Source: Escherichia coli (GTDB lineage Bacteria > Pseudomonadota > Gammaproteobacteria > Enterobacterales > Enterobacteriaceae). Taken from it: a DNA stretch of 64,000 nucleotides. Made by a program: the position numbers and the translations under genes. Where the stretch lies: the NCBI RefSeq assembly GCF_013122565.1, contig NZ_CP053258.1; one strand, 5' to 3'. The stretch's first letter is position 1. Each line of letters begins with the position of its first letter. Positions 1,810-51,984 of the stretch are shown here, piece by piece. The notes under the pieces are model-generated. The model searched no databases and was not told where the DNA came from. It saw only the letters and a list, made by a program, of their open reading frames with translations.

Positions 1810-1845
1810 CCAAAAAAAACCCGCTGATTAAGCGGGTTTTGAATT
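1810..1845. terminator. bidirectional intrinsic terminator between convergent crcB and cspE
   Basis: aaaaaaaacccgct-gatta-agcgggtttt hairpin with flanking A and T runs. Confidence 0.7.
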
Positions 1846-1859
1846 CTTGCTGACGTATC

Positions 1860-2069
1860 TTACAGAGCGATTACGTTTGCAGCAGAAGGGCCTTTGGCAC
1901 CGTTAGTGATTTCGAACTCTACACGCTGACCTTCAGCAAGAGTTTTAAAACCATTAGTCTGGATTGCAGAGAAGTGTACGAACACGTCTTTGCTGCCGTC
2001 TTCCGGAGTAATGAAACCGAATCCTTTGGACTCATTAAACCACTTAACGTTACCTTTAATCTTAGACAT
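1860..2069 (-). CDS. cspE: cold-shock-domain protein CspE (69 aa)
   Basis: Internal start of track ORF 1860..2153; [37 protein letters not shown] contains the RNP1/RNP2 cold-shock motifs. Confidence 0.95.
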
Positions 2070-2243
2070 CAAAATTACCTTTACATGAAAAATAGACACA
2101 AATGCTGTGTCGGTTACCAGTACACCAATTGTGGTACGCTTTGTCCAGTGCAACTTTACTAAAAAGTGATAAAAGTCGCGTTATTTTTGATGTTAATTAT
2201 TTTACTCATTGATTTTAAAGAGTTTACTAAAATTTCATTTGTC

Positions 2244-15167: not shown

Positions 15168-15313
15168 TCATCTGATTTACAAAACACGCTAATTCGTCTC
15201 CCATAAACCATGACGATTAAGATTTATACATAATGCGCTGCATTGAGGAATTCCCTGAATGTGACGCAAATCACTTCAAAGAGTGAGCAACAGTCAGTAT
15301 CATCATGTGAGTT

Positions 15314-15348
15314 AAACCCTCGCCGCCTGACGGTGAGGGTTTTCTTTT
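15314..15348 (+). terminator. intrinsic terminator downstream of rna
   Basis: aaaccctcgccg-cctga-cggtgagggtttt-cttttgg hairpin plus U-tract (coordinates approximate). Confidence 0.6.
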
Positions 15349-15396
15349 GGGTATGTTTATCTGCGACACTCGCAGTACCGACGACATGGAGTAAAA

Positions 15397-20718: not shown

Positions 20719-21465
20719 ATGCTAAAAAAGTCACTTTTAATGACAATGCTACCTGCCATTGCCTTCGCAGAGGAACTTCCTGCTCCAGTAAAAGCGATTG
20801 AAAAACAGGGCATTACAATCATCAAAACGTTCGATGCCCCCGGAGGAATGAAAGGTTATCTCGGAAAGTATCAGGATATGGGCGTCACCATCTACCTGAC
20901 TCCAGATGGTAAGCACGCTATCTCTGGTTACATGTACAACGAGAAAGGTGAAAACCTGAGTAACACACTTATCGAAAAAGAAATTTACGCACCAGCCGGA
21001 CGCGAAATGTGGCAACGGATGGAACAATCCCACTGGCTCCTCGACGGTAAAAAAGACGCGCCGGTCATTGTCTACGTCTTCGCCGATCCGTTCTGCCCAT
21101 ATTGTAAACAGTTCTGGCAGCAGGCGCGCCCGTGGGTAGATTCTGGCAAAGTGCAGTTGAGAACATTGTTGGTTGGGGTTATCAAACCAGAAAGTCCGGC
21201 GACAGCCGCGGCAATTCTTGCCTCCAAAGATCCCGCAAAAACCTGGCAAGAATATGAAGCCTCTGGTGGCAAGCTTAAGCTAAACGTGCCTGCAAACGTA
21301 AGTACAGAGCAAATGAAAGTGTTAAGCGATAACGAGCAACTCATGGACGATCTGGGGGCAAATGTCACACCCGCTATCTATTACATGAGTAAGGAAAATA
21401 CGTTGCAACAAGCCGTGGGGTTGCCCGATCAGAAAACGCTTAATATCATTATGGGAAATAAATAA
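20719..21465 (+). CDS. dsbG: periplasmic disulfide isomerase DsbG (248 aa)
   Basis: Track ORF 248 aa with signal peptide and CPYC thioredoxin-fold active site. Confidence 0.92.
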
Positions 21466-21477
21466 AAGATAATTCAT

Positions 21478-21513
21478 GGATGGTTGAAATATACCCCTGC
21501 TTTTCAACCATCC
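21478..21513 (+). terminator. hairpin after dsbG (terminator candidate, weak U-tract)
   Basis: ggatggttgaaa-tatacccctgc-tttcaaccatcc 12-bp inverted repeat 13 nt after the dsbG stop. Confidence 0.45.
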
Positions 21514-21672
21514 TTAAAACGCATGAATTGCTCGCTCTGTGCCAGATGGCTGTGCTATTTTAGAAAAACTTAATCCTGAGTTAAGCAAAAAAACATAATC
21601 AATAAAAATATATACGCAAAAACATTGATTAAGTGAATACTTCATGGAAGAAAAATATAACCGGAGTACTGT

Positions 21673-22575
21673 ATGGCCAATCTCTACGACCTGAAAAAGT
21701 TCGACTTAAATCTTCTTGTCATCTTTGAGTGCATTTATAAACACTTAAGCATAAGCAAGGCTGCTGAGTCATTATATATCACTCCATCAGCAGTGAGTCA
21801 GTCGTTACAACGCTTACGTGCGCAATTTAATGACCCTTTATTCATTCGCTCAGGAAAAGGTATCACGCCAACTACGACAGGGTTAAATTTACACAATCAC
21901 CTTGAGAAAAACCTCAGAGGTCTTGAGCAAACAATCAATCTTGTTAATAAATCGGAAGTAAAGAAAAATTTTATTATCTACGGTCCTCAGCTCATCTCCT
22001 GTTCTCATAACCGCATGCTGATCCGCTGCCTACGGCAAGATACCTCGGTCGAGATTGAGTGCCATGACACACTTATTTCAGCCGAGAATGCTGAAGAACT
22101 GTTGGTTCATCGCAAAGCCGATCTGGTGATCACTCAAATGCCAGTGATCAGTCGTTCCGTCATTTGTATGCCATTGCATACGATTCGTAATACCCTAATT
22201 TGTAGTAATAAACATCCCCGGATTACAGATACCAGTACTTACGAACAAATTATGGAAGAAGAGTTCACCCAATTAATTTCCAAATCATCGGGGCTTGATG
22301 ACATTCAAATGGAAATAGACGAGAGGTTTATAAATCGTAAAATTGCCTTTCGTGGCTCCTCTTTATTGGCGATCATAAATAGCATTGCGATTACAGATTT
22401 GCTAGGAATAGTTCCCTTTGAACTTTATGAATCCCACCAAGAATCTCTTAATTTAAAGGAAATAAAACTAGAGCACCCCCTACCCTTGGTTAAGCTTTAC
22501 ATTTGTTACAACAAGACTTCTCTAAACAACCTGGCATTCTCACGATTCATTGACAGATTGAATGATAATTCTTGA
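21673..22575 (+). CDS. ybdO: LysR-family transcriptional regulator (300 aa)
   Basis: Track ORF 300 aa with N-terminal LysR HTH (LSISKAAESLYITPSAVSQSLQRLR); strongly AT-rich coding sequence. Confidence 0.88.
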   Translation: MANLYDLKKFDLNLLVIFECIYKHLSISKAAESLYITPSAVSQSLQRLRAQFNDPLFIRSGKGITPTTTGLNLHNHLEKNLRGLEQTINLVNKSEVKKNFIIYGPQLISCSHNRMLIRCLRQDTSVEIECHDTLISAENAEELLVHRKADLVITQMPVISRSVICMPLHTIRNTLICSNKHPRITDTSTYEQIMEEEFTQLISKSSGLDDIQMEIDERFINRKIAFRGSSLLAIINSIAITDLLGIVPFELYESHQESLNLKEIKLEHPLPLVKLYICYNKTSLNNLAFSRFIDRLNDNS

Positions 22576-22720
22576 TATATAGATTCAGAGAGAGGCTACA
22601 TCCTTTCATTTCTATTCATTTCATCAATAAAAAATAAAATACTCTACCTTACAGGACTTACTTTATAATTAACGACCTTATCTCACTGATCACCCTGTAA
22701 CGTTCAGAGAGCGTATTTAG

Positions 22721-23941
22721 ATGTCTATTTATAAAATTCCTCTTCCACTCAATATTCTGGAAGCTGCACGAGAGCGTATTACCTGGACACTCAATACCCT
22801 ACCCCGCGTTTGTGTCTCATTTTCTGGCGGCAAAGACTCTGGTTTAATGCTGCATCTGACAGCCGACCTTGCCCGACAAATGGGCAAAAAAATCTGCGTT
22901 TTGTTTATCGACTGGGAAGCGCAGTTCTCATGCACTATCAACTATGTTCAGTCACTACGCGAGTTTTACGCCGATGTCATCGAAGAGTTTTACTGGGTTG
23001 CGCTCCCGCTTACGACGCAAAATTCCCTTTCACAATACCAACCCGAATGGCAGTGCTGGGAACCTGATGTCGAATGGGTGCGTCAGCCCCCGCAAGATGC
23101 GATAACCGATCCTGACTTTTTCTCCTTTTACCAGCCAGGCATGACCTTCGAACAATTTGTACGTGAGTTTGCCGAATGGTTTTCACAAAAACGTCCGGCG
23201 GCGATGATGATCGGCATCCGTGCGGATGAGTCCTACAATCGTTTTGTCGCCATCGCCAGTTTAAATAAACAACGTTTTGCCGACGATAAACCCTGGACTA
23301 CGGCCGCGCCAGGCGGTCATAGCTGGTACATATACCCCATCTACGACTGGAAAGTCGCCGATATCTGGACCTGGTATGCTAAAAACCAAAGCCTCTGTAA
23401 CCCACTGTATAATCTGATGTATCAGGCAGGTGTCCCTCTGCGTCATATGCGAATTTGCGAACCTTTTGGCCCGGAGCAACGGCAAGGATTATGGCTCTAT
23501 CACGTCATCGAACCGGATCGCTGGGCGGCCATGTGCGCACGAGTCAGCGGAGTAAAAAGTGGCGGCATTTACGCCGGACATGACAACCATTTTTATGGTC
23601 ATCGTAAAATCCTCAAGCCGGAACATTTAGACTGGCAGGAGTATGCATTATTGCTACTCAGCAGCATGCCGGTGAAAACAGCTGAACATTACCGTAATAA
23701 AATCGCCATTTATTTGCACTGGTATCAGAAAAAAGGCATCGAGGTTCCACAAACCCAACAAGGGGACATTGGCGCGAAAGATATCCCCTCCTGGCGGCGA
23801 ATATGCAAAGTTTTACTCAACAACGATTACTGGTGCCGGGCATTATCATTTAGCCCCACAAAAGCGAAGAATTATCAGCGTTATAACGAACGGATAAAAG
23901 GAAAACGTCAGGAATGGGGGATACTATGCAACAACGATTAA
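22721..23941 (+). CDS. ybdN: PAPS-reductase-like PP-loop ATP pyrophosphatase domain protein (IbrA-like, 406 aa)
   Basis: Track ORF 406 aa; PP-loop motif SFSGGKDS at residues 33-40 (about nt 22817-22840). Confidence 0.88.
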   Translation: MSIYKIPLPLNILEAARERITWTLNTLPRVCVSFSGGKDSGLMLHLTADLARQMGKKICVLFIDWEAQFSCTINYVQSLREFYADVIEEFYWVALPLTTQNSLSQYQPEWQCWEPDVEWVRQPPQDAITDPDFFSFYQPGMTFEQFVREFAEWFSQKRPAAMMIGIRADESYNRFVAIASLNKQRFADDKPWTTAAPGGHSWYIYPIYDWKVADIWTWYAKNQSLCNPLYNLMYQAGVPLRHMRICEPFGPEQRQGLWLYHVIEPDRWAAMCARVSGVKSGGIYAGHDNHFYGHRKILKPEHLDWQEYALLLLSSMPVKTAEHYRNKIAIYLHWYQKKGIEVPQTQQGDIGAKDIPSWRRICKVLLNNDYWCRALSFSPTKAKNYQRYNERIKGKRQEWGILCNND

Positions 23942-24543
23942 CGCAGGATTTAACGCAATTTCTCGCCAGCTTGCCGGAAGACGATCGCATCAAAGCGATT
24001 AATGAAATCCGCATGGCGATCCATCAGGTAAGTCCTTTTCGGGAAGAGCCGGTGGATTGTGTTTTGTGGGTCAAAAATGATCAGCTTGTGCCAAATGATT
24101 ACAACCCAAACAACGTGGCACCGCCCGAGAAAAAATTGCTGAAAAAATCCATTGAAACTGATGGTTTTACCCAACCCATTGTGGTGACCAACACGACAGC
24201 CAATTCACTTGAAATCGTTGATGGTTTTCACCGCCATGAAATCGGTAAAGGATCATCATCATTAAAACTACGCTTAAAAGGTTATTTACCGGTGACCTGC
24301 CTGGAGGGGACGCGTAATCAGCGCATCGCCGCGACTATTCGTCATAATCGCGCTCGTGGACGCCATCAAATCACCGCCATGTCGGAAATCGTCCGTGAAC
24401 TTAGCCTGTTGGGATGGGACGATAATAAAATTGGCAAAGAGCTGGGAATGGACAGCGACGAAGTGCTGCGCCTGAAGCAAATTAACGGCCTGCAAGAGTT
24501 GTTTGCCGACCGTCAATATTCCCGCGCCTGGACTGTCAAATAA
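23914..24543 (+). CDS. ybdM: ParB/Srx-like nuclease domain protein (IbrB-like, 209 aa)
   Basis: Track ORF 209 aa; DGFHRHE motif at residues 103-109 (about nt 24220-24240); 28-nt overlap with ybdN. Confidence 0.88.
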   Translation: MGDTMQQRLTQDLTQFLASLPEDDRIKAINEIRMAIHQVSPFREEPVDCVLWVKNDQLVPNDYNPNNVAPPEKKLLKKSIETDGFTQPIVVTNTTANSLEIVDGFHRHEIGKGSSSLKLRLKGYLPVTCLEGTRNQRIAATIRHNRARGRHQITAMSEIVRELSLLGWDDNKIGKELGMDSDEVLRLKQINGLQELFADRQYSRAWTVK

Positions 24544-25704
24544 CTACAGCTGGCGCAGGCGTTCAGCTGCTGCCAGCAACGTCGATTCCTTCTTGGCAAA
24601 ACAGAGACGAATCAGTTTATGTGGGAAGGGATCGGCGCAAAACACCGATAGCGGAATCGCCGCTACGCCGTGCTCCTGCGTCAGCCACTGGCAAAACTCA
24701 ACATCATCCAGGGTAGATACGGCGCTGTAATCCACCAGCAAAAAGTATGTGCCTTCGCACGGTAAAATCTCCAGCCGACTTTCATTTAAGGCGTTAACCA
24801 GAATATCGCGCTTCTGGCGATAAAAGTCCGGTAACGCAAGATAATGCTCAGGTTCTGCACGTAGCATATCGGCAAGCGCCAGCTGTGCCGGGGTATTTAC
24901 CGAAAAGGTCAGATACTGATGTACCTTGCGAATTTCGGCACTGATGGGCGCTGGCGCAACGCAATAACCCACTTTCCAGCCGGTCATATGATAGGTCTTG
25001 CCAAACGATGACACCGCCACCGCCCGCTCACGCAACTGCGGATGCGCCAGCACACTGGCATGGCCCTGTTGTGAAAAGTTGATGTGCTCGTAGACTTCAT
25101 CGCTAATGACAAAAATCTCGTGCCCGGCGATCGCCTGCCACAAAGCGGCGAAATCAGCCTGCTGCCAGACAGTTGCACTGGGGTTATGCGGAGTGTTGAG
25201 GATCACCAGTCGGGTGCGCTCGCTTAACAATGCGGCAAATTCCTGCCAGTCAACGCGAAAATGCGGTGGTTGCAGTGCCATACGCTTCACTATTCCCCCA
25301 GAAAGCGCGATGGCGGGGGCGTAACTGTCATAGCTGGGATCAAAACAAATCACTTCATCGCCATTGCGCACCAATGCGGTAATCGCCGCGTATAACGCCT
25401 CCGTCGCCCCTGCCGTTACGGTGATATCGCTGTCGGCATCCGGTTGATAGCCATACAGACGTTCCGTTTTCTGAGCAATCGCCTCGCGCAAGGCCTGCAC
25501 GCCGCTCATGGGCGCGTATTGGTTTGCCCCCTGGGCAACGTGGTACGCCAGTCGCTCTTGTAAATAGCGCGGACCATCAAAATCAGGAAAGCCTTGCGAA
25601 AGGTTAATCGCCTGGTGTTGCTGCGCCAGCGCGCTCATCTGGGTGAAAATAGTGGTGCCAAGTTGTGGAAGTTTGCTTTGTGGAATCAGAGGGTTATTTG
25701 TCAT
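24544..25704 (-). CDS. ybdL: PLP-dependent methionine aminotransferase (386 aa)
   Basis: Track ORF 386 aa, class I/II aminotransferase pattern (SFGKTY lysine region); stop abuts the ybdM stop. Confidence 0.9.
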   Translation of the reverse strand: MTNNPLIPQSKLPQLGTTIFTQMSALAQQHQAINLSQGFPDFDGPRYLQERLAYHVAQGANQYAPMSGVQALREAIAQKTERLYGYQPDADSDITVTAGATEALYAAITALVRNGDEVICFDPSYDSYAPAIALSGGIVKRMALQPPHFRVDWQEFAALLSERTRLVILNTPHNPSATVWQQADFAALWQAIAGHEIFVISDEVYEHINFSQQGHASVLAHPQLRERAVAVSSFGKTYHMTGWKVGYCVAPAPISAEIRKVHQYLTFSVNTPAQLALADMLRAEPEHYLALPDFYRQKRDILVNALNESRLEILPCEGTYFLLVDYSAVSTLDDVEFCQWLTQEHGVAAIPLSVFCADPFPHKLIRLCFAKKESTLLAAAERLRQL

Positions 25705-37044: not shown

Positions 37045-37085
37045 CCAAATAAGATCGATAACGATAATTAATTTCATTATCATGG
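37045..37085. promoter_or_regulatory. Fur-box-like sequence in the divergent entS / fepD control region
   Basis: gataacgataattaatttcattatc in the 98-110 bp entS-fepD intergenic region (coordinates approximate). Confidence 0.5.
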
Positions 37086-39899: not shown

Positions 39900-41029
39900 A
39901 CTAAGTGGTCTGCCATCATGGCATCCTGTTTTCTGGATGCCATCGCATGGCGCAACAGCACACCACCACAAGCCACCATCCCGCCGATCAACGCGGAAAG
40001 GATCACAATAATCGCCTTACCCGGACCGTCTTTTTTCACTGGCAATGACGGGCTTAACTGATATTTAAACGGCGTAAAATTCACATCGTTGACATTTGCT
40101 TTTGTTAATTGCTCGACAAGATACTGACGATTACGTAATTCACCATTCAGTTCCGCAACGTCAGTAACCGCTTTTTCAATTTCCAGTTTGCGTTCAATAC
40201 CGTCTGCGCCGAGAGAAATAGAGAAATCGGGGTCATCTTTAACGGCCTGACCATTACTGTATACGGGCTTTTTAATTCCTGCCGCGTTGGCAATGTCGAG
40301 TGAATAATTGAGGCGCTGAATGTTTGCATCAAGTTGATTTTTCGTTTTAATGCGATCCTGAGCCAGTTTTTCTTTTTCAAACTGGGTTTTGATCTCCAGC
40401 TTATTACGGACGTTTTCTAGCGACTCTTTCACCACCAACGCAGAGATATAATCGATATACCCGCTCAAAACGGTCTGCGCCTCTTCACTGGTTGGCGCGG
40501 TAAAACTTAGCGTCCAGGAGGTATACAGTGACGGTTCATCTTTTTTCTTACTGGCATTGTCATCAACCGCTTTCATTTTTTCGCTCAATGCGACAATTGC
40601 GCGATGCAAATCCAGTTCGTCGATTTTCGCCTCTTTTAATTGGTCCATCACATAAGGTGATGAACGCAGGTACTCTTCCAGCAAGCTAATTGACTGAAAT
40701 TTCTTGATAAACAGATTAAATACACCGCCACGGTCGATATTAACATCGAGATCAAGAACGCGGAGTTTGGTAAAGGTTTTCTCCAGGTCCTGCCACTGAA
40801 TGGCTTCGGCGGGAGTAATGACGGCTGAGCTGGTCCATTTTTGCGGCAGGATGAAAGAGATCAGCAAGCCTGCGCAGGCAAATGCAAAAACGACTGCCAT
40901 GACCGTTTTTTTGGCCCGCCATAAAACTTCGATTAGATTAAGTAAATCAATTTCATTATTACTGGGCGATGCCAGAGGATACTCAGGAAAATGAGCGTCA
41001 CTTCCCTGTTTAATATTCAGTGATGACAT
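39896..41029 (-). CDS. fepE: polysaccharide co-polymerase (Wzz-like) FepE (377 aa)
   Basis: Internal Met (MSSLNIKQGSDAHFPEYPLASP) of track ORF 39896..41080; two TM helices flanking a coiled-coil periplasmic domain. Confidence 0.9.
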   Translation of the reverse strand: MSSLNIKQGSDAHFPEYPLASPSNNEIDLLNLIEVLWRAKKTVMAVVFAFACAGLLISFILPQKWTSSAVITPAEAIQWQDLEKTFTKLRVLDLDVNIDRGGVFNLFIKKFQSISLLEEYLRSSPYVMDQLKEAKIDELDLHRAIVALSEKMKAVDDNASKKKDEPSLYTSWTLSFTAPTSEEAQTVLSGYIDYISALVVKESLENVRNKLEIKTQFEKEKLAQDRIKTKNQLDANIQRLNYSLDIANAAGIKKPVYSNGQAVKDDPDFSISLGADGIERKLEIEKAVTDVAELNGELRNRQYLVEQLTKANVNDVNFTPFKYQLSPSLPVKKDGPGKAIIVILSALIGGMVACGGVLLRHAMASRKQDAMMADHLV

Positions 41030-41194
41030 GGGTATAACCTGAAAATGAGTCCAATAGGGGAAAATCTCCACGGCGCTCACTTTACCAGTTGGTGAGAATT
41101 ATCCGAAGCTGAAGTTTGTAAATTCCTTCCACTGAATGAAACATTCACTCTATTTAAGAGAAATGACCAACAAACATATAAATTAAATAAATGA

Positions 41195-41229
41195 TTAACC
41201 CATAATTATTTCCTGTAATTATGGGTTAA
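41195..41229. repeat. perfect 14-bp-arm inverted repeat 15 nt downstream of the entF stop
   Basis: ttaacccataatta-tttcctg-taattatgggttaa; followed on the minus strand by an AT-rich tract. Confidence 0.6.
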
Positions 41230-41243
41230 TAGATAATATTAAT

Positions 41244-44200
41244 TTACCTGTTTAGCGTTTCGCGAATAATCGGCCCAATTTTTTCAAACGCCCCTGGAGA
41301 GATAATATCCACATGCGCACAATCCTGACGATAGATATCCAGCCCGGCTATCCACGGCGACCAGGCGCGTTCGGGGCTCATACCTTCCTGAAGCGTACGT
41401 TCAGCAACAAACAGCGTCGCTCTACCATCAAACGGTACGCTATGAGCAGTCGTCAGCAGGCGCACAGCATCAGCGTAGTTGCCTTCAATGGTGGTAAACA
41501 ACTCCGTTGAAGTACTTCCCTGCTGTGCCGCCAGGAAGGCCTCGCGTTCGCGGTTAATCTCCGCCAGCACTTCCGGGTCCAGGCCATTAGCCTCTTTTTC
41601 CTGCCAGTTTTGCGTTTCTGGCGGCCAGGTATCCAGCAAGCCAAGAAATGCCACCTGTTCGCCACGGGCACGCAGTCGCGCCGCAATACCCTGCGCCAGC
41701 GTACCGCCCAGCGAATAACCCAGCAGGTAATAAGGGCCGTGCGGTTGTTGCTCAAGTAACGTTGCCAGATGCGCTTCGCAGACTTCATCCAGATTTGCCG
41801 CGGTCTGCATGGGGCCATTGGGGCGCGGCGACTGAATGCCGATAATCGACCATTGTGGATCGAGATAACGCGAGAGCACGCTGAACTGCCAGGCAAAACC
41901 GGACGCAGGATGGAAACAAAACAGCGTCGGGCCATTACCTTCACGCAACGGCAGAATGGTTTCGAATCCCATGCGCCGGGAGCTGTCCTCTTCACCATCA
42001 ATAATCGTTGCCAGTTTGGCGACGGTTGATGCGACCATCACCTGCCCCGGCGTCACCTGACGGGCAAACTGCCGACTTAACTGCGCTGCCAGTTTCATTG
42101 CCAGTAGCGAATGACCGCCTAGCGCGAAGAAATCAGCATCGGCATCCTGCACGTCACAACCCAGCAACGACGCGAATGCCGCGGCGATAATCGTTTCACT
42201 GCCCGCTTTCGGCGCACGCCCCGGCGCTTGTGCTTTCAGTTCAGGCAACGGTAAGGCTTTGCGATCCAGCTTGCCGTTGGCGCTAAGAGGTAACTGTGGA
42301 AGTTGCAGCAGAACCACGGGCACCATATGTGGTGGCAATGTTTCGCGAAGCTGCGCCTGTAATGCGCTGGTATCCAACGGCAGGCCCGATTGCGACACCA
42401 GATAGCCCACCAACTGACGCGCATCACCACCGGTGGCTGCCGCCTGGTTAATCACACAGGCGTGGGTAACGGCTTGTTCGACACCCGGCAGCGCCTGCAT
42501 CACGCGATCGATTTCGCCCAGTTCGATACGCTGCCCGCGAATTTTTAGCTGATCGTCACTGCGCCCGAGGTATTCCACCGCGCCGTTATCGAGCCAGCGG
42601 GCAACGTCTCCGGTACGGTACATCCGTTCACCTGGGGCAAAAGGATCGGCAATAAAGCGGCTGGCGGTCAGATCGGGTCGTCCAAGATACCCCTGCGCCA
42701 GTTGAATGCCGGTGAGATAGAGATCACCCGCCACACCCGGCGGCACCGGATGCATCATCGCATCGAGAATGCGCAGGCCCGTATTCCACACCGGATAACC
42801 AATCGGCACACTGCTGCCGCGTACCTGTGCCAGTTCCTCGCCAAAGGCCGGATACCAGCTCACATCTACCGCTGCTTCCGTCGGGCCATACAGATTATGC
42901 AACGGCGCGCCGGTTAACTGTTGCCATTCGCGGCATAAATCAGCCGGTAAGGCTTCACCACTACAGAAAACCTGTTTCAACGTCGCGCAACTCTGGCGAG
43001 CGGTTTGCGGCGTCAGCGATGCAACAAATGCCGCCAGCATCGACGGCACAAAGTGCGTGGTCGTTACGCCATATTCGGCAAAGAATTGCTGCATAGCGAG
43101 CGGGTCGCGGTGCGCTTCCGGTTCAGCCATCACCAGTTTCGCCCCGGCAATAAACGGCCAGAAAAACTCCCACACCGAGACATCAAAACTGCACGGCGTT
43201 TTTTGGGCAACGACATCTTCGCCTGTAAGCGGATAATGATTTTGCATCCACAACAGGCGGTTGACGATAGCCGTCTGCCCGACCATTACCCCTTTCGGCC
43301 TGCCGGTGGAGCCAGAGGTAAAGATGATATAAGCCGTGTGATGCGGTTGTGAAAGTTGCAGCGGCGCACTGCCCTGCGGTGTAAGCGGGGCGTTATAGCA
43401 AAGGCTGGTTAAATCTGGAACATCAACAAAGCGCGGCAGTTGATCGTCGGTGGTGATTAACAGCGACGGACGCGCATCTTCCAGCATCATTTTCAGGCGA
43501 TCGTCCGGATAGCCGGTATCCAGCGGTAGCCAGGCCGCACCAGCTTCAACAATCGCATGTAGCGCCAGGGTCAAAAAGACCGAGCGCGGTAATGCCACCG
43601 CCACGCTGTCCCCTGGTTTAACGCCGTGCTCACGCAGCAGATTCGCCAGCGCCACCACCTGCTCGCGCATTTCCCGATAGCTGAACTGGTAACGCGCATC
43701 TGCCAGCGCCGGAGCATCCGGTGTTTTTGCCGCTTGTTCTGCCACCAGCGCGCTAAGCGTGGTTTCTGGAATCTCAACCTGAGTGGCGTTGATCTGCGCC
43801 AGCTGCGCGTATTCACCTGGCAGCATAATATCGACATCGCCGCACAACAGCGCCGGATCCGCGGCGAATTGGGCGATCAGCATTTTCAGGCGTTCAGCAT
43901 GCTGGATTAACGTTGGCTCAGCGTAACGCTGTTTATTGGCGAGGATTTCAATACTCAAATCACCGTGTTCATCCGGGAACAGGGCCAGTTCAAGGTCATT
44001 AACCGGACCGGTTGCCAGGGTATGGGTTTGCGCCTGAACATCAGGAATATCCAGTTGGTAATCAAAGACCTTGATATTGAGTACCGGACCAAACAGGGGT
44101 TCATCACCTGCCGCTCGCCCGCTGTCACGGACAATTTGTTCGGCATCGTAACGTTGATGGCGACGCATTTTTTTCAGTTGAGCCGCCAGTCGGGTTGCCA

Positions 44201-45125
44201 GTTCCGGCAGCGTTTCTTGCGCCGCAATATGAATACCCAACGGCAAAACGTTGAGCACGGGTCCGGTAGCCGTCAGCGCCGCCGAGCCCAGTCGACGCAT
44301 AAAGATAAATCCGGCAGCGTAGTCCATGCGATTGCACAATCGCCCCAGCCACAAAGCCGCCAGCGCAAGGGCTAAATCGGTACGCTGCACACCTGAAAGT
44401 TGCGTAGCCAGCTGGCGGAATTCCCCGTCAGTAAATTCCAGTTTCAGGCGCAGAATATCTGCCGAAGCGCTGCGCCCCGGTAAAGGTGCCGGAGAAAGTG
44501 ACGCGGGCGGCGGCAATTGACGACGCTGTTCCGCCCAGAATGCCGCATCACGCTGCCAGGCTTCGCTTTCGCGATATTGCTGGTACTCTTCCACTACATC
44601 AGCGAAAGGCGTAAACGGCGAAGCAGGCGTTGGTTCGCCACGCAGCCATGCGCAGTAAATATTGGCGATCTGGCGGGTAATGGCCGGGAAACTGAAGCCA
44701 TCGACCAGCAAATGGTGATAACGCTGATACCAGTACCAGCGGTTATCCGCCACCTGTATCAACTGATGAAAGACCAGTGGTTTACCGCTATCGACGCGCA
44801 GATCTTGTTGCAAATCCGCCTGCATTAATGCCTGCGCAGTACCGTGCGGATCAATGTTGGTTCGCAGGTCGATAATTTCTGGCAGTTCGAACGTCAGCGC
44901 ATCATCGACCCACTGCCAGACTTCGCCGTTATCTTCCGTAAAACGCATCCGCAGCGTATCTGCTTGCGCTAATCCGGCAACCACCGCGCGGGCCAGTAAT
45001 GGCGCATCAACCTCTCCGGTTAACTCAACGTAATGCGCCACGCTCCAGGCGGAGGGTAAATCCGACAGTTTTTCTGCCATCCAGATGCCGGGCTGTGCGG
45101 CGACCAAAGGTAAATGCTGGCTCAT
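41244..45125 (-). CDS. entF: enterobactin non-ribosomal peptide synthetase EntF (C-A-PCP-TE, 1293 aa)
   Basis: Internal ATG (MSQHLPLVAAQPGIWMAEKL) of track ORF 41244..45263; cat at 45123-45125 on the plus strand; adenylation, carrier (GGHSLLAMKLAAQ) and thioesterase (GYSLGG) motifs. Confidence 0.95.
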   Translation of the reverse strand: MSQHLPLVAAQPGIWMAEKLSDLPSAWSVAHYVELTGEVDAPLLARAVVAGLAQADTLRMRFTEDNGEVWQWVDDALTFELPEIIDLRTNIDPHGTAQALMQADLQQDLRVDSGKPLVFHQLIQVADNRWYWYQRYHHLLVDGFSFPAITRQIANIYCAWLRGEPTPASPFTPFADVVEEYQQYRESEAWQRDAAFWAEQRRQLPPPASLSPAPLPGRSASADILRLKLEFTDGEFRQLATQLSGVQRTDLALALAALWLGRLCNRMDYAAGFIFMRRLGSAALTATGPVLNVLPLGIHIAAQETLPELATRLAAQLKKMRRHQRYDAEQIVRDSGRAAGDEPLFGPVLNIKVFDYQLDIPDVQAQTHTLATGPVNDLELALFPDEHGDLSIEILANKQRYAEPTLIQHAERLKMLIAQFAADPALLCGDVDIMLPGEYAQLAQINATQVEIPETTLSALVAEQAAKTPDAPALADARYQFSYREMREQVVALANLLREHGVKPGDSVAVALPRSVFLTLALHAIVEAGAAWLPLDTGYPDDRLKMMLEDARPSLLITTDDQLPRFVDVPDLTSLCYNAPLTPQGSAPLQLSQPHHTAYIIFTSGSTGRPKGVMVGQTAIVNRLLWMQNHYPLTGEDVVAQKTPCSFDVSVWEFFWPFIAGAKLVMAEPEAHRDPLAMQQFFAEYGVTTTHFVPSMLAAFVASLTPQTARQSCATLKQVFCSGEALPADLCREWQQLTGAPLHNLYGPTEAAVDVSWYPAFGEELAQVRGSSVPIGYPVWNTGLRILDAMMHPVPPGVAGDLYLTGIQLAQGYLGRPDLTASRFIADPFAPGERMYRTGDVARWLDNGAVEYLGRSDDQLKIRGQRIELGEIDRVMQALPGVEQAVTHACVINQAAATGGDARQLVGYLVSQSGLPLDTSALQAQLRETLPPHMVPVVLLQLPQLPLSANGKLDRKALPLPELKAQAPGRAPKAGSETIIAAAFASLLGCDVQDADADFFALGGHSLLAMKLAAQLSRQFARQVTPGQVMVASTVAKLATIIDGEEDSSRRMGFETILPLREGNGPTLFCFHPASGFAWQFSVLSRYLDPQWSIIGIQSPRPNGPMQTAANLDEVCEAHLATLLEQQPHGPYYLLGYSLGGTLAQGIAARLRARGEQVAFLGLLDTWPPETQNWQEKEANGLDPEVLAEINREREAFLAAQQGSTSTELFTTIEGNYADAVRLLTTAHSVPFDGRATLFVAERTLQEGMSPERAWSPWIAGLDIYRQDCAHVDIISPGAFEKIGPIIRETLNR

Positions 45126-45340
45126 TGTGCCTCCTGCAACTGGGTGAAATTCGACGGTGTCAGAGTACGCCAGTGGGTTTCCAGCCACTGCTGGCAGGAC
45201 GCCTGTGACTGCGGCTGACACACAACGTCCCAGCCTGCCGGTAAGGCGCATTGTTGCGGCCACAGACTGAATTGCCCCTGCGCATTGCGCAAAATGTAAA
45301 ACGCTCCCTGCGGATCATCGAAGGGATTACTGAATGCCAT
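45122..45340 (-). CDS. ybdZ: MbtH-like protein (72 aa)
   Basis: Internal Met (MAFSNPFDDPQGAFYILRNAQGQFSLWP) of track ORF 45122..45346; 4-nt overlap with entF start. Confidence 0.9.
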   Translation of the reverse strand: MAFSNPFDDPQGAFYILRNAQGQFSLWPQQCALPAGWDVVCQPQSQASCQQWLETHWRTLTPSNFTQLQEAQ

Positions 45341-45342
45341 AT

Positions 45343-46545
45343 TCAACTCCTGTCATGGAAAAGTGGTTGCCAGAGGTCGATTAGCCCCTGCATCAAGCCA
45401 CCGCGCCAACAAAGCGCATCATGTCCGCCGTCAACCTGACGCCAGAAAATGGATACTTTTATGGGGTGTAATTGCGCATATAGCGCCTGATTGGCCCGCA
45501 TGATCATCGGCTCGCGAATACCCGCTTCCAGCACAATGCGCAGACCTTCGGCGCTAACTTCACCAGCTTTAAGCTTTTCAAGTAACACGCCCTCTTGCTG
45601 CCCGCCCCGGTGCGGCCACCAGTACGATCCTGACTGGCTTAATACACAGCCAAAGCGTTCAGGCCAGTGCAGTCCGGCATACAGCGCGGAAAGCCCACCA
45701 AAACTCTGCCCGGCGACCACGGTGCGATCGGCGCGATCGCTAAAAGGGGCAATAGCTTTCACCAGGGGTAATAACTCTTGCTGTACTGCCAGCCAGAAAT
45801 CCGCATTACACGGCAGTTCGTGGGCGCGATGCGTGGTGTCGATAGCGTCGATCAACACATACACGGCGGGAGGAAGTTGCTGACGATGGGTCAACGAAGT
45901 CAGCGCAGGCCAGACGGGCATACTCTGCGCCCAAAATTCGCCATCAAGCAAAACTGCCAGCGGGCGTTCTTCTGCTGTTGCATCACCGGTGGTAAAAATC
46001 CATACACGGCGTGAATTTTTCAACCGTTCACTTTTCCAGATAATTTCTTTGGCTGGTATTTCTGGCGCTTGCGGACAATCCCATCCCGGTTGCAGAGGCG
46101 CTTGCGGCATTTCGAGTGCAGAAACAGCGTGCCCTCGCCCGCCTTTCCAGCTTTGTGGATTCAGCGGATCGGCTATTGCCTGGGGTAATAGTTTTCGCCA
46201 GCCTTCACGTAATTCGAGGCGATCGGGGGATGGTGCAGAAAAAATGTCATCGCGTTCGGTGGGAATAAAGCAGTAGCTGCCGCGCCAGTTGGCATTGAGT
46301 TGTGTCGTCCACTGCCAGACATCAGTACCTGCAATTCGCTGCATCGACTGGGGCTGGCTGTTCTGATGATGATCGGTCACACCAGTGATGTAGACCCATA
46401 CGCGCTTTATCGTCGAGTATTCTTCAGAACCTTGGGGATCACGCCACCAGAAAGTGACCTCAAACATTTCGTCATTCAGACGCTGCCATTCCGGGCCATG
46501 TTTCGACTGCCACCAGCTCTCACTTCCTACTTTTAACGCCGTCAC
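45343..46545 (-). CDS. fes: enterochelin esterase (400 aa)
   Basis: Track ORF 400 aa with GQSFGG serine-hydrolase motif; start codon is GTG. Confidence 0.92.
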   Translation of the reverse strand: MTALKVGSESWWQSKHGPEWQRLNDEMFEVTFWWRDPQGSEEYSTIKRVWVYITGVTDHHQNSQPQSMQRIAGTDVWQWTTQLNANWRGSYCFIPTERDDIFSAPSPDRLELREGWRKLLPQAIADPLNPQSWKGGRGHAVSALEMPQAPLQPGWDCPQAPEIPAKEIIWKSERLKNSRRVWIFTTGDATAEERPLAVLLDGEFWAQSMPVWPALTSLTHRQQLPPAVYVLIDAIDTTHRAHELPCNADFWLAVQQELLPLVKAIAPFSDRADRTVVAGQSFGGLSALYAGLHWPERFGCVLSQSGSYWWPHRGGQQEGVLLEKLKAGEVSAEGLRIVLEAGIREPMIMRANQALYAQLHPIKVSIFWRQVDGGHDALCWRGGLMQGLIDLWQPLFHDRS

Positions 46546-46589
46546 ACCATAACCCCATGTTTACTGTGCAATTTTTCATTGATTGCAGA

Positions 46590-46630
46590 AATATATTGAT
46601 AATATTATTGATAACTATTTGCATTTGCAA
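46590..46630. promoter_or_regulatory. Fur box(es) in the divergent fes / fepA control region
   Basis: ttgataatattattgataactatttgc, overlapping Fur-consensus hexamers, within the 242-bp fes-fepA intergenic region. Confidence 0.6.
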
Positions 46631-46787
46631 TAGCGTAATGGCGCGCCGTGGGAAGCGCGGACATTAATTAACCAACTGCACTGCGTGTCTTTCAGGATCA
46701 AAGGCTTTCGCGGTAGCGGGCTGCGTCATGCTGGTGACGCCCCTGCCCGACAGTTGCAATTCGTGGCAAAAATGCAGGAATAAAACA

Positions 46788-49028
46788 ATGAACAAGAAGA
46801 TTCATTCCCTGGCCTTGTTGGTCAATCTGGGGATTTATGGGGTAGCACAGGCACAAGAGCCAACCGATACTCCTGTTTCACATGACGATACCATTGTCGT
46901 TACCGCCGCCGAGCAGAACTTGCAGGCACCTGGCGTTTCGACCATCACCGCAGATGAAATCCGCAAAAACCCGGTTGCCCGCGATGTGTCGGAGATCATC
47001 CGTACCATGCCAGGCGTTAACCTGACCGGTAACTCCACCAGTGGTCAGCGTGGTAATAACCGCCAGATTGATATTCGCGGCATGGGTCCGGAAAACACGC
47101 TGATTTTGATTGACGGCAAGCCAGTAAGCAGCCGTAACTCGGTGCGTCAGGGCTGGCGTGGTGAGCGCGATACCCGTGGTGATACCTCCTGGGTGCCACC
47201 TGAAATGATTGAACGTATTGAAGTTCTGCGTGGTCCGGCAGCTGCGCGTTACGGCAACGGCGCGGCGGGCGGCGTGGTTAACATCATTACCAAAAAAGGC
47301 AGCGGTGAGTGGCACGGCTCCTGGGATGCTTATTTCAATGCGCCAGAACATAAAGAGGAAGGTGCCACCAAACGCACCAACTTCAGCCTGACCGGTCCGC
47401 TGGGCGACGAATTCAGCTTCCGCTTGTATGGCAACCTCGACAAAACCCAGGCTGACGCGTGGGATATCAACCAGGGCCATCAGTCCGCGCGTGCCGGAAC
47501 GTATGCCACGACGTTACCAGCCGGGCGCGAAGGGGTGATCAACAAAGATATTAATGGTGTCGTTCGTTGGGATTTCGCACCTCTGCAGTCACTCGAACTG
47601 GAAGCGGGCTACAGCCGCCAGGGTAACCTGTATGCGGGCGATACCCAGAACACCAACTCTGACGCTTACACTCGCTCGAAATATGGCGATGAAACCAACC
47701 GCCTGTATCGCCAGAACTACTCGCTGACCTGGAACGGTGGCTGGGATAACGGCGTGACCACCAGCAACTGGGTGCAGTACGAACACACCCGTAACTCGCG
47801 CATCCCGGAAGGTCTGGCGGGCGGCACAGAAGGGAAATTTAACGAAAAAGCGACACAGGATTTCGTCGATATCGATCTTGATGACGTGATGCTGCATAGC
47901 GAAGTTAACCTGCCGATTGATTTCCTCGTTAACCAGACGCTGACGCTGGGTACGGAGTGGAATCAGCAACGGATGAAGGACTTAAGTTCCAACACCCAGG
48001 CACTGACCGGAACGAATACCGGCGGCGCTATTGATGGTGTGAGTGCCACCGACCGTAGCCCGTATTCAAAAGCAGAAATTTTCTCGCTGTTTGCCGAAAA
48101 CAACATGGAGCTGACTGACAGCACCATCGTAACGCCGGGGCTGCGTTTCGATCATCACAGTATTGTCGGCAATAACTGGAGCCCGGCGCTGAACATATCG
48201 CAAGGTTTAGGCGATGACTTCACGCTGAAAATGGGCATTGCCCGCGCCTATAAAGCGCCGAGCCTGTACCAGACTAACCCGAACTACATTCTCTACAGTA
48301 AAGGTCAGGGCTGCTATGCCAGCGCGGGCGGCTGCTATCTGCAAGGTAACGATGACCTGAAAGCAGAAACCAGCATCAACAAAGAGATTGGTCTGGAGTT
48401 CAAACGCGACGGCTGGCTGGCGGGCGTCACCTGGTTCCGTAACGATTATCGCAATAAGATTGAAGCGGGCTATGTGGCTGTAGGGCAAAACGCAGTCGGC
48501 ACCGATCTCTATCAGTGGGATAACGTGCCGAAAGCGGTGGTTGAAGGTCTGGAAGGATCTTTAAACGTACCGGTTAGCGAAACGGTGATGTGGACCAATA
48601 ACATCACTTATATGCTGAAGAGTGAAAACAAAACCACGGGCGACCGTTTGTCGATCATCCCGGAGTATACGTTGAACTCAACGCTGAGCTGGCAGGCACG
48701 GGAAGATTTGTCGATGCAAACGACCTTCACCTGGTACGGCAAGCAGCAGCCGAAGAAGTACAACTATAAAGGTCAGCCAGCGGTTGGCCCGGAAACCAAA
48801 GAAATTAGTCCTTACAGCATTGTTGGCCTGAGCGCGACCTGGGATGTGACGAAGAATGTCAGTCTGACCGGCGGCGTGGACAACCTGTTCGACAAACGTT
48901 TGTGGCGTGCGGGTAATGCCCAGACCACGGGCGATCTGGCAGGGGCCAACTATATCGCCGGTGCCGGTGCGTATACCTATAACGAGCCGGGACGTACGTG
49001 GTACATGAGCGTTAATACTCACTTCTGA
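46788..49028 (+). CDS. fepA: TonB-dependent ferric enterobactin outer-membrane receptor (746 aa)
   Basis: Internal Met (MNKKIHSLALLVNLGIYGVAQA signal peptide) of track ORF 46728..49028; TonB box DTIVVTA and C-terminal aromatic residue. Confidence 0.95.
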   Translation: MNKKIHSLALLVNLGIYGVAQAQEPTDTPVSHDDTIVVTAAEQNLQAPGVSTITADEIRKNPVARDVSEIIRTMPGVNLTGNSTSGQRGNNRQIDIRGMGPENTLILIDGKPVSSRNSVRQGWRGERDTRGDTSWVPPEMIERIEVLRGPAAARYGNGAAGGVVNIITKKGSGEWHGSWDAYFNAPEHKEEGATKRTNFSLTGPLGDEFSFRLYGNLDKTQADAWDINQGHQSARAGTYATTLPAGREGVINKDINGVVRWDFAPLQSLELEAGYSRQGNLYAGDTQNTNSDAYTRSKYGDETNRLYRQNYSLTWNGGWDNGVTTSNWVQYEHTRNSRIPEGLAGGTEGKFNEKATQDFVDIDLDDVMLHSEVNLPIDFLVNQTLTLGTEWNQQRMKDLSSNTQALTGTNTGGAIDGVSATDRSPYSKAEIFSLFAENNMELTDSTIVTPGLRFDHHSIVGNNWSPALNISQGLGDDFTLKMGIARAYKAPSLYQTNPNYILYSKGQGCYASAGGCYLQGNDDLKAETSINKEIGLEFKRDGWLAGVTWFRNDYRNKIEAGYVAVGQNAVGTDLYQWDNVPKAVVEGLEGSLNVPVSETVMWTNNITYMLKSENKTTGDRLSIIPEYTLNSTLSWQAREDLSMQTTFTWYGKQQPKKYNYKGQPAVGPETKEISPYSIVGLSATWDVTKNVSLTGGVDNLFDKRLWRAGNAQTTGDLAGANYIAGAGAYTYNEPGRTWYMSVNTHF

Positions 49029-49067: not shown

Positions 49068-49164
49068 GCCGGATGCGGCGTGAACGCCTTATCCGGCCTA
49101 CAAAATCTTGCTAATTCAATATATTGCAGGACTACGTAGGCCTGATAAGCGTAGCGCATCAGGC
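49068..49164. repeat. BIME: two REP units in inverted orientation between fepA and entD
   Basis: gccggatgcggcgtgaacgccttatccggcctaca (49068-49102) and gtaggcctgataagcgtagcgcatcaggc (49136-49164). Confidence 0.6.
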
Positions 49165-51044: not shown

Positions 51045-51562
51045 TTTTTCGTGGGATGAGCTAAGGCTTTCAGCTTTTTTAGATACACAAGCCGCGTTTC
51101 AAGAAATCGAACTTGCCTTTCAAGATCCTCAATGCGTCGGTCTTTTGACAGCTCCAATGCTGATGCCGCTTTTTCTGGATCAACTGATATTGCAATGTTT
51201 CTTTTGGTGCCAATCTTGAGCGCGCGTAAACCAGCTTCTCCGCGCTCTTCATAAACCTTCAGCCACCTGGCTACAGAACCACTACCAGCAAGCATAAAGT
51301 GAGCAGCAGCCTGATTAAGGGACATGTGCTGCTCGATCACAGCTTTCACGACCTTAATACGCAACTCTGGATCAGCACTAACACCTTTAGGTTTGGGAAT
51401 TAAACCTTTTTCTCCATGTTTTTCATAGAGGGCAACCCATGTCCTGACCTGGGTTCGGGGGACACCAAAACGTGCCGAGATGATCCTGTAACCATCATCA
51501 GTAGTGAAGTAGTGATTCACGACTTCAAGGCGCTTTTCAAAAGGGTATTTTGGCTTTGACAT
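51041..51562 (-). CDS. insJ: IS150 OrfA (InsJ, HTH DNA-binding, 173 aa)
   Basis: Track ORF 173 aa (MSKPKYPFEKRLEVVNHYFTTDDGYRIISARFGVPRTQVRTW...), recognised as IS150 OrfA. Confidence 0.93.
   Translation of the reverse strand: MSKPKYPFEKRLEVVNHYFTTDDGYRIISARFGVPRTQVRTWVALYEKHGEKGLIPKPKGVSADPELRIKVVKAVIEQHMSLNQAAAHFMLAGSGSVARWLKVYEERGEAGLRALKIGTKRNIAISVDPEKAASALELSKDRRIEDLERQVRFLETRLVYLKKLKALAHPTKK
51074..51080 (-). other. IS150 programmed -1 ribosomal frameshift slippery heptamer A_AAA_AAG near the end of orfA
   Basis: orfA codons ...CTA AAA AAG CTG... (L-K-K-L) located 11-12 codons before the orfA stop, within the orfA/orfB overlap window. Confidence 0.7.
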
Positions 51563-51984
51563 ATCAGGGGCTATTCCATTTCATCGTCCAACAAAATGGG
51601 TGCAGTACAGGGTTGATAGAAATATCTCCTGGGGCTTCATCTTTCCAGACCTCAGAGTAAACCTGAAACCGGAAAGCTTCAGGCACCCGCCGTTATCTTA
51701 CCCTTCCTCAACAAAATAGCTGTTTATTTATACAGTGAGTCCTGTTTCGGACTTCTCACTCCCCATTTGATCAACTGAAGCTGAACCCGTTTTTTTCTGC
51801 ATGCCGCAATCGTCAAAATTCTTCGCCACCAGCCAGCCGTGCCATAACTTGTCACATTGCAAAAGTAGCCAAATTGCTTCAGGCACCATCAGTTCACCAT
51901 CACCAAAAAAAAGAAACATTCCAGAACTTCCGCATCTCGCCCAGCCGCTCCGACTTCTATACTGAATAGAAAACGCCAACATAA

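What the first reader, a model, noticed from the sequence alone, without database searches (positions are those of the whole stretch)
45122..45340. MbtH-like gene translationally coupled to the entF NRPS
The 72-codon ybdZ stop overlaps the entF ATG by 4 nt, and ybdZ itself begins 3 nt after the fes stop, so fes-ybdZ-entF is a tightly coupled unit. By knowledge of the family, MbtH-like proteins bind NRPS adenylation domains, so the coupling probably ensures stoichiometric co-expression with EntF.
Basis: partly seen in the sequence, partly recalled or inferred. Interest (0 to 1): 0.3.

Follow-up and report, generated by a model that had tools for sequence, protein, structure and literature searches.

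The report
Known ybdZ–entF four-base gene overlap
This is the well-studied E. coli gene ybdZ, a small helper protein of the enterobactin synthetase EntF; its four-base overlap with entF is real, but it is the commonest junction type in bacterial operons and already on record, so the finding is ordinary.

Summary
The fes stop is TGA at 45345-45343. Two bases (AT) follow, then ybdZ runs from ATG 45340 to TGA 45122 (72 aa). The entF ATG at 45125-45123 shares ATGA with the ybdZ stop. YbdZ is a clear MbtH-like protein: Pfam PF03621 scores 77 bits and all signature Trp residues are present. It is 68/72 identical to the YbdZ chain of the solved EntF-YbdZ complex 5JA1.

The geometry is not special. 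Four of 21 mapped same-strand junctions in this window are ATGA. A published K-12 gene-pair table already lists ybdZ->entF at -4 and fes->ybdZ at +2. Across 40 other enterobacterial loci the ybdZ->entF junction always stays within -8 to +10 nt, but the exact form varies (-8, -4, +1, +2, +9, +10). The 2-nt fes->ybdZ spacing is confined to Escherichia.

entF also has its own strong ribosome-binding site (AGGAGG) inside the ybdZ tail, in RNA that is not structured. Initiation independent of ybdZ is therefore possible. Distant MbtH genes are usually not placed directly upstream of a synthetase gene.

Coupling by termination-reinitiation is likely but untested. The claim that it enforces stoichiometry is plausible inference only. 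Verdict: already known, low interest.

The parts
45343..46545 (-). fes (enterochelin esterase), 400 aa, GTG start, TGA stop at 45345-45343
   Evidence: Translation. Pfam Enterochelin_N plus Esterase. RefSeq annotation of the homologous gene.
45347..45351 (-). Shine-Dalgarno AGGAG for ybdZ, inside the last fes codons, 6 nt before the ATG
   Evidence: Sequence. A GGAG-type motif is conserved at this position in all 39 loci, median anti-SD duplex -6.9 kcal/mol against a background of -2.6.
45122..45340 (-). ybdZ, 72-aa MbtH-like protein (ATG 45340-45338, TGA 45124-45122)
   Evidence: PF03621 at 77.1 bits. 68/72 identity to 5JA1_B. W27, W37 and W57 present.
45130..45135 (-). Shine-Dalgarno AGGAGG for entF, embedded in ybdZ codons Gln-Glu-Ala (CAG GAG GCA), 4 nt before the entF ATG
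   Evidence: Sequence. Duplex energy -10.3 kcal/mol against background -2.6 +/- 2.5. The region is less structured than shuffles, z = +1.96.
45122..45125 (-). ATGA: entF start codon overlapping the ybdZ stop codon by 4 nt
   Evidence: Same geometry annotated in E. coli NRZ14408 and EC14 and listed for K-12 in PMC10666635, supplementary file 3.
41244..45125 (-). entF, 1293-aa NRPS termination module (C-A-PCP-TE)
   Evidence: Translation. Pfam Condensation, AMP-binding, PP-binding and Thioesterase. The N-terminal 100 aa match 5JA1_A from its first Met.
46546..46727 (.). fes-fepA divergent intergenic region with an AT-rich, 6-nt-phased Fur-box-like array (about 46592-46628); presumed promoter of the fes-ybdZ-entF(-fepE) transcript
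   Evidence: Sequence. The best 19-mer Fur consensus match has 6 mismatches, with phased 7-mismatch matches; only 4.5% of random windows do as well. Operon and Fur/CRP regulation are taken from PMC4145685 and were not tested here.

Best explanation
The feature is the known E. coli-type gene ybdZ. It encodes a 72-aa MbtH-like protein that binds the adenylation domain of the enterobactin synthetase EntF. It sits in the iron-regulated fes-ybdZ-entF(-fepE) operon. The ATGA stop/start overlap with entF is the standard, most frequent operon junction. The last codons of ybdZ double as a strong Shine-Dalgarno site (AGGAGG) for entF in unstructured RNA. entF is therefore most likely translated in two ways: by ribosomes that terminate at the ybdZ UGA and reinitiate 1 nt upstream (termination-reinitiation), and by ribosomes that bind de novo at the SD. 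The net effect is co-expression of helper and synthetase from one mRNA. Shown: gene identities, geometry, SD strength, open RNA structure, and conservation of a short junction. Taken from the literature: complex formation. Inferred: that reinitiation occurs. The overlap is not a device specific to MbtH proteins and is not required for YbdZ function.
For: Identity: Pfam MbtH 77 bits; 68/72 identity to YbdZ in the EntF-YbdZ crystal 5JA1; RefSeq annotation and synteny. Geometry. Junction kept short in every relative: -8 (7 loci), -4 (22), +1, +2, +9 (2), +10 (6), plus K. pneumoniae +10 and E. hormaechei -4. All of these lie inside the -8..+10 range that Huber et al. treat as permissive for reinitiation. 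In the -4 group the last ybdZ codon is always NNA while the encoded residue varies (Q, A, S, P, R, L, V). This shows constraint on the entF ATG rather than on the YbdZ C-terminus. SD: -10.3 kcal/mol in the window, median -8.4 across loci, against background -2.6. Open initiation region: z = +1.96 against shuffles; mean unpaired probability 0.45 against 0.36 at internal sites. Four of five native E. coli ATGA pairs tested experimentally showed coupling (PMC6728339). No promoter-like or terminator-like site was found at either junction. Ordinariness: 4 of 21 junctions in the window are ATGA; -4 is the modal distance in E. coli.
Against: No experiment or dataset on ybdZ-entF coupling was found. 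One of the five tested E. coli ATGA pairs (bioBF) was not coupled at all. A strong SD in open RNA could make de novo initiation dominant. The comparative loci are phylogenetically related, so the counts are not independent events.
Confidence: 0.65

Rival explanations
1. The overlap is specifically selected to couple entF translation strictly to ybdZ translation. YbdZ and EntF are then made in a fixed (about 1:1) ratio, possibly so that YbdZ made from the same mRNA meets the nascent EntF adenylation domain co-translationally.
For: YbdZ and EntF form a complex (5JA1). YbdZ is reported to improve EntF solubility and activity. In E. coli, pairs at -8..+10 nt are enriched 4.5-fold for subunits of heteromeric complexes, which the authors interpret as selection for stoichiometry and co-translational assembly. 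The junction never exceeds +10 nt in 41 enterobacterial loci. Some NRPSs carry the MbtH domain fused in cis (4GR4/4GR5 SlgN1 and 6N8E ObiF1 appear among the hits), so fixing 1:1 in cis is a recurring solution. Leclercia and Silvania loci combine ATGA with a weak SD (-3.8 kcal/mol), as expected if reinitiation suffices.
Against: No measurement of the synthesis ratio could be retrieved. entF has a strong SD of its own in open RNA. Eight of the 39 loci scored, and separately K. pneumoniae, use a +9/+10 spacer with a canonical TAAGGAG; Huber et al. consider this arrangement likely to initiate independently. Non-cognate MLPs are reported to compensate for loss of YbdZ, so cis delivery is not required. 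Of 8 distant MbtH gene contexts, only 1 has the MbtH gene directly upstream of an adenylation-domain gene. In Pantoea sp. SO10, which has the same fes-MbtH-NRPS order, the gap is 161 nt. 70% of E. coli short-distance pairs encode no complex.
Confidence: 0.3
2. There is no functional coupling. The ATGA overlap is neutral genome compaction. entF is initiated essentially only de novo at its own SD, and co-expression comes solely from co-transcription under Fur control.
For: Strong SD and unstructured initiation region. The geometry drifts among -8, -4, +1, +2, +9 and +10. ATGA is the default junction. bioBF shows that an ATGA pair can be uncoupled.
Against: Four of five tested E. coli ATGA pairs were coupled, three strongly. 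The junction is confined to -8..+10 nt in all 41 loci, whereas the neighbouring fes->ybdZ junction ranges from 2 to about 30 nt. This suggests constraint on proximity. The weak-SD lineages retain the overlap.
Confidence: 0.2

Closest known systems
E. coli K-12 ybdZ (b4511) - entF (b0586), with the EntF-YbdZ complex structure PDB 5JA1
   Same: Same genes, order (fes-ybdZ-entF-fepE), lengths (72 aa, 1293 aa), 2-nt fes/ybdZ spacer and 4-nt ybdZ/entF overlap. YbdZ is 68/72 identical and the EntF N-terminus 98/100 identical.
   Different: Four conservative substitutions in YbdZ relative to the crystallised protein (V32A, I39V, A55T, T63S). The window's DNA is at most 97.5% identical over fes-entF-fepE to any of 5,426 complete E. 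coli genomes.
Native E. coli ATGA gene pairs shown to be coupled by termination-reinitiation (hyfHI, astDB, ydbH/ynbE, menDH; Huber et al. 2019 and 2023)
   Same: Same-strand pair, 4-nt ATGA overlap, SD of the downstream gene inside the upstream coding sequence, products that form a complex.
   Different: ybdZ-entF has never been tested. Its SD is unusually strong and its initiation region is open, so the share of de novo initiation may be larger. Huber et al. scored this pair as 'CMPLX not'.
Other MbtH-like protein / NRPS arrangements (Klebsiella and Enterobacter enterobactin clusters; plasmid-borne clusters; fused MbtH domains in SlgN1 and ObiF1)
   Same: An MbtH-like protein encoded in or next to an NRPS cluster. 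In Enterobacteriaceae the gene is always directly upstream of entF.
   Different: Junction type varies (-8..+10). Outside the family the MbtH gene is often downstream of the NRPS, next to tailoring genes, or orphan. In SlgN1 and ObiF1 it is fused to the synthetase.

Membership tests
MbtH-like protein (Pfam PF03621) | Matches the family HMM above the curated threshold | tested here: met
   77.1 bits against gathering score 27, residues 4-54 on profile positions 2-52 of 53.
MbtH-like protein (Pfam PF03621) | Small stand-alone protein of about 60-80 aa with three signature Trp (SLWP, GW, W-x-x-L/D-x-P) | tested here: met
   72 aa. W27, W37 and W57 align to Trp in 6EA3 and 2MYY. W27, W37 and W52 are invariant in 39 loci; W57 is present in 37 of 39.
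MbtH-like protein (Pfam PF03621) | Encoded within an NRPS gene cluster | tested here: met
   Immediately upstream of entF (C-A-PCP-TE), inside the ent/fep cluster.
MbtH-like protein (Pfam PF03621) | Binds the adenylation domain of its NRPS partner and stimulates it | not testable with these tools
   Known for the 94%-identical K-12 protein: the 5JA1 complex and published biochemistry summarised in PMC7593251.
YbdZ orthologue of the enterobactin cluster | Near-identity to E. coli YbdZ and fes-ybdZ-entF-fepE synteny | tested here: met
   68/72 identity to 5JA1_B. Same gene order and spacing as annotated E. coli genomes. The region is present in 5,412 of 5,426 complete E. coli genomes. No NCBIfam HMM exists for it.
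Translationally coupled gene pair (termination-reinitiation) | Same strand, one transcript, stop-to-start distance within about -8 to +10 nt | tested here: met
   -4 nt. No promoter-like or terminator-like site at the junction. The operon is listed as fes-ybdZ-entF-fepE.
Translationally coupled gene pair (termination-reinitiation) | Translation of the downstream gene depends on ribosomes reaching the upstream stop codon | not testable with these tools
   Needs a reporter or ribosome-profiling experiment. No such data were found for this pair.
Translationally coupled gene pair (RBS-unmasking type) | The downstream SD/AUG is sequestered in a stable RNA structure that upstream translation must open | tested here: not met
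   The 120-nt region around the entF start folds worse than 198 of 200 shuffles (z = +1.96). The SD/AUG is more unpaired than internal sites across 39 loci (0.45 against 0.36).

The most novel reading that the evidence does not exclude
In Escherichia, entF translation depends substantially on ybdZ translation, and this delivers freshly made YbdZ in cis to the nascent EntF adenylation domain. Under this reading the poorly conserved YbdZ C-terminal tail (residues after about 62) evolves mainly as the entF ribosome-binding site. Lineages with a weak SD (Leclercia, Silvania) would rely entirely on reinitiation. ybdZ-entF would then be one more complex-forming pair that a published survey scored as non-complex.
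Probability: 0.3. Interest if true: 0.3.

Novelty: already known. Interest (0 to 1): 0.07.

Why it matters
It matters little beyond housekeeping. The gene, the protein complex and the overlap are all on record. There are two practical points. First, the entF ribosome-binding site lies inside the last 15 nt of ybdZ, so ybdZ deletions or insertions that remove or disturb this tail can change entF expression and be misread as pure YbdZ phenotypes. Second, ybdZ-entF is a convenient, untested natural case for the published idea that short overlaps serve complex stoichiometry, and the genome-wide survey scored it as 'no complex'.

Tried and rejected
1. A masked-RBS coupling mechanism: rejected, because the entF initiation region is unstructured.
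2. Exact conservation of the ATGA overlap: rejected, because six junction types occur.
3. A conserved tight fes-ybdZ junction: rejected, because 2 nt is seen only in Escherichia.
4. MbtH->NRPS overlap as a family-wide rule: rejected on 8 distant annotated contexts.
5. Quantitative YbdZ:EntF synthesis or abundance data: not obtained. Li et al. 2014 and Schmidt et al. 2016 are not held. The supplements of an acid-stress ribosome-profiling paper have no entries. The held parts of the Mori et al. 2021 tables contain EntF but not YbdZ.
6. The primary YbdZ papers (Felnagle 2010; Schomer and Thomas 2017, 2018) are not held. Their results are cited second-hand from PMC7593251 and PMC10510592.
7. A literature search for 'MbtH-like' plus 'translational coupling' gave only unrelated lyngbyatoxin papers.
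8. The Fur consensus at 3 or fewer mismatches is not found in the fes-fepA intergenic region. The best match has 6 mismatches, in a phased array.
9. Hidden features at the locus: no Rfam family and no meaningful repeats. The antisense ORFs of 62-69 aa were not pursued, as nothing supports them.
10. NCBIfam has no model that matches YbdZ.
11. Local divergence of the ent region as a recombination import: rejected, because the whole window is about 96-99% identical to the compared strains.

Full report
OBSERVATION. The three genes lie on the minus strand of the window. Reading that strand, fes ends ...CAT GAC AGG AGT TGA, with the stop at 45345-45343. Two bases (AT) follow. ybdZ then starts at ATG 45340-45338 and runs for 72 sense codons to TGA 45124-45122. 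The entF ATG is at 45125-45123, so the sequence ATGA carries the entF start and the ybdZ stop, a 4-nt overlap. From that ATG an uninterrupted 1293-codon frame runs to 41244. Its 'begins 3 nt after the fes stop' corresponds to a 2-nt spacer.

The ybdZ and entF start codons are not arbitrary choices. The crystallised YbdZ and EntF chains begin at these methionines. RefSeq annotates the same geometry in two E. coli genomes. The EntF N-terminus M-x-x-x-LPLVAAQPGIWMAE is conserved from this position in 38 related loci. The longest possible entF-frame ORF starts 46 codons further upstream at a GTG (45263). Nothing supports that start.

IDENTITY. The 72-aa product matches Pfam MbtH (PF03621) at 77.1 bits against a threshold of 27. 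It is 68/72 identical to chain B of PDB 5JA1, 'enterobactin biosynthesis protein YbdZ', with substitutions V32A, I39V, A55T and T63S. The signature Trp residues are present. W27 (SLWP), W37 (GW) and W57 align with Trp in other solved MbtH-like proteins. In 39 enterobacterial sequences W27, W37 and W52 are invariant and W57 is present in 37.

The downstream protein has the Condensation / AMP-binding / PP-binding / Thioesterase architecture of EntF. The upstream protein is the enterochelin esterase Fes. The wider window is ordinary E. coli-type chromosome, running lipA...cit...ahpCF...entCEBAH-fepB-entS-fepDGC-fepE-entF-ybdZ-fes-fepA-entD...cusCFBA. The region is present in 5,412 of 5,426 complete E. 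coli genomes.

IS THE OVERLAP UNUSUAL? No. I mapped annotated same-strand junctions of a close strain onto the window. Four of the 21 that mapped are ATGA overlaps (citD/citE, fepD/fepG, fepG/fepC, ybdZ/entF). Others are TAATG (-1) or have 2-3-nt gaps. Huber et al. [quoted passage not shown] Their supplementary table for K-12 already lists 'fes-ybdZ +2' and 'ybdZ-entF -4'. The geometry is therefore on record.

CONSERVATION. A scan of one genome per species returned 38 usable loci from more than 15 enterobacterial genera. In all of them ybdZ lies between fes and entF. The ybdZ->entF distance is -4 in 22 loci including the window, -8 in 7, +1 and +2 in one each, +9 in 2 and +10 in 6. A K. pneumoniae record has +10 and an E. 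hormaechei record -4. Proximity is therefore conserved, never more than 10 nt, but the exact overlap is not.

In the -4 group the last ybdZ codon is always NNA, while the amino acid varies (Q, A, S, P, R, L, V). The YbdZ tail beyond about residue 60 is less conserved than the core, with column identity 0.62 against 0.79. Even so, it always carries a purine-rich GGAG-like motif. The 3' end of ybdZ is thus constrained largely as the entF initiation region. The fes->ybdZ spacing of 2 nt is confined to Escherichia. Other genera have 10-30 nt, although a GGAG 6-8 nt before the ybdZ ATG is universal.

MECHANISM. Two routes to entF initiation are compatible with the sequence. The first is termination-reinitiation. 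A ribosome finishing ybdZ at UGA sits 1 nt from the entF AUG. In native E. coli ATGA pairs tested with dual reporters, three were strongly coupled, one about 60% coupled and one not coupled. Efficiency falls steeply with distance.

The second route is de novo initiation. entF has AGGAGG 4 nt upstream of its AUG, with a duplex energy against the 16S 3' end of -10.3 kcal/mol. Random internal 18-mers give -2.6 +/- 2.5. The 120-nt region around the start folds less stably than 198 of 200 dinucleotide shuffles, z = +1.96. Across 39 loci the SD/AUG segment is more unpaired than internal positions, 0.45 against 0.36, Mann-Whitney p about 2e-6, although the loci are not independent. The classical variant of coupling, in which upstream translation unmasks a sequestered RBS, is therefore not supported.

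My best reading is mixed initiation: reinitiation assisted by the SD, plus independent loading. This gives co-expression from the Fur/CRP-controlled fes-ybdZ-entF-fepE transcript. The operon and its regulation come from PMC4145685. The intergenic region shows only a weak, phased Fur-box-like array. No promoter-like or terminator-like site falls at either junction.

THE STOICHIOMETRY CLAIM. In its favour, YbdZ and EntF form a defined complex (5JA1). YbdZ is reported to raise EntF solubility and activity and to be needed for enterobactin production. Short-distance pairs in E. coli are 4.5-fold enriched for complex subunits. Some synthetases carry the MbtH domain fused in cis; SlgN1 4GR4 and ObiF1 6N8E are among the hits.

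Against it, non-cognate MbtH-like proteins are reported to compensate for loss of YbdZ. Of the 39 loci scored, eight have a +9/+10 spacer with a canonical TAAGGAG. K. pneumoniae has the same +10 spacing. Huber et al. consider this arrangement likely to initiate independently. In eight distant, annotated MbtH contexts, only one (Pseudoalteromonas) has the MbtH gene directly upstream of an adenylation-domain gene. Three have it downstream of an NRPS. Three (Rhizobium, Rhodococcus, and Streptomyces clavuligerus) have it beside tailoring genes or alone; the eighth is Pantoea, described next. A Pantoea plasmid with the same fes-MbtH-NRPS order has a 161-nt gap before the NRPS. I could retrieve no measurement of the YbdZ:EntF synthesis ratio. 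The claim is a reasonable application of a published general idea, not a demonstrated property of this pair.

COMPARISON AND NOVELTY. This is the K-12 ybdZ-entF arrangement in a somewhat divergent Escherichia background. The gene, its family, its partner, the complex structure and the -4 overlap are all already described. A literature search found no paper that links MbtH-like proteins to translational coupling with entF. The specific hypothesis is therefore unpublished as far as I can see, but it is a routine inference. One small point is that Huber et al. scored this pair as 'CMPLX not', although 5JA1 shows a complex. It is thus a missed positive for their enrichment.

VERDICT. Novelty: already known. 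Interest: low.

Noticed in passing
window 41194-41230 (minus strand), just after the entF stop at 41244: A perfect 15-bp AT-rich hairpin (ATTAACCCATAATTA-CAGGAAA-TAATTATGGGTTAAT) followed by a T-rich tail. It lies in the 163-nt (GTG start 41080) to 214-nt (annotated start about 41029) entF-fepE spacer. It is a candidate terminator or attenuator that could separate fepE expression from entF.
   Followed up: no
window 41000-47000 and the whole window: The fes-entF-fepE stretch is at most 97.5% identical to any of 5,426 complete E. coli genomes. Against two of the best-matching strains, most 1-kb bins are about 93-99.6% identical. The source seems to be an Escherichia lineage poorly represented among complete E. 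coli assemblies.
   Followed up: partly
window 21000-25000: The citR/ybdN/ybdM region is much more divergent than its surroundings, only 77-95% identical to two E. coli strains.
   Followed up: no
window 16038-17276 (minus strand): A 412-aa Zn-dependent dehydrogenase-like ORF sits in a segment (about 15.9-17.5 kb) that has no counterpart in E. coli NRZ14408. From memory it is probably ybdR of K-12, a strain-variable gene; this was not tested.
   Followed up: partly
window 1812-2170 (-), 15243-15351 (+), 49102-49143 (+), 51533-51688 (-): Rfam matches above gathering score: cspA-type thermoregulator (upstream of cspE), rnk leader, ES036 sRNA in the fepA-entD spacer, and sok antitoxin RNA of the hokE locus.
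   Followed up: no
window 37063-37081: The only Fur-box consensus match with 3 or fewer mismatches in the 64-kb window (GATAATGAAATTAATTATC). It lies in the entS-fepD divergent intergenic region. The fes-fepA region matches only at 6 mismatches.
   Followed up: partly
L036 (Yokenella regensburgei) and L037 (Trabulsiella guamensis), YbdZ residue 57: The third signature Trp of the MbtH motif (W57) is replaced by Val in these two genera, while W27, W37 and W52 are kept.
   Followed up: no
L012, L013, L015, L016, L040 (Silvania, Leclercia): entF has only a weak SD-like motif (AGGTGA, -3.8 kcal/mol) combined with the ATGA overlap. These lineages may depend more on reinitiation than on SD-driven initiation.
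   Followed up: no
L007 (Lactobacillus johnsonii ATCC 33200 scaffold, 223 nt) and L026 (Chryseobacterium sp. 18061 contig): Both carry enterobacterial ybdZ. The first is 92% identical to the window's protein. The second has the same query identity and nearly the same YbdZ sequence as a Citrobacter sp. contig from the same study. These are probably assembly contamination or mislabelling.
   Followed up: no
PMC10666635 supplementary file 3 (K-12 gene-pair table): ybdZ-entF (-4) and fes-ybdZ (+2) are listed as 'CMPLX not'. Yet YbdZ-EntF is a crystallographically defined complex (5JA1), so the pair is mis-scored in that survey.
   Followed up: yes
L055 (Klebsiella aerogenes NCTC10006, record labelled plasmid 5): entF and fes are each annotated as several fragments (entF_1/2/3, fes_2/3) around an intact mbtH/ybdZ gene. 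This indicates either pseudogenisation or sequencing frameshifts.
   Followed up: no
window 45126-45263 (minus strand): The entF reading frame stays open for 46 codons upstream of the true ATG, through most of ybdZ in another frame. Naive longest-ORF calling gives a 1339-aa EntF starting at GTG 45263.
   Followed up: yes
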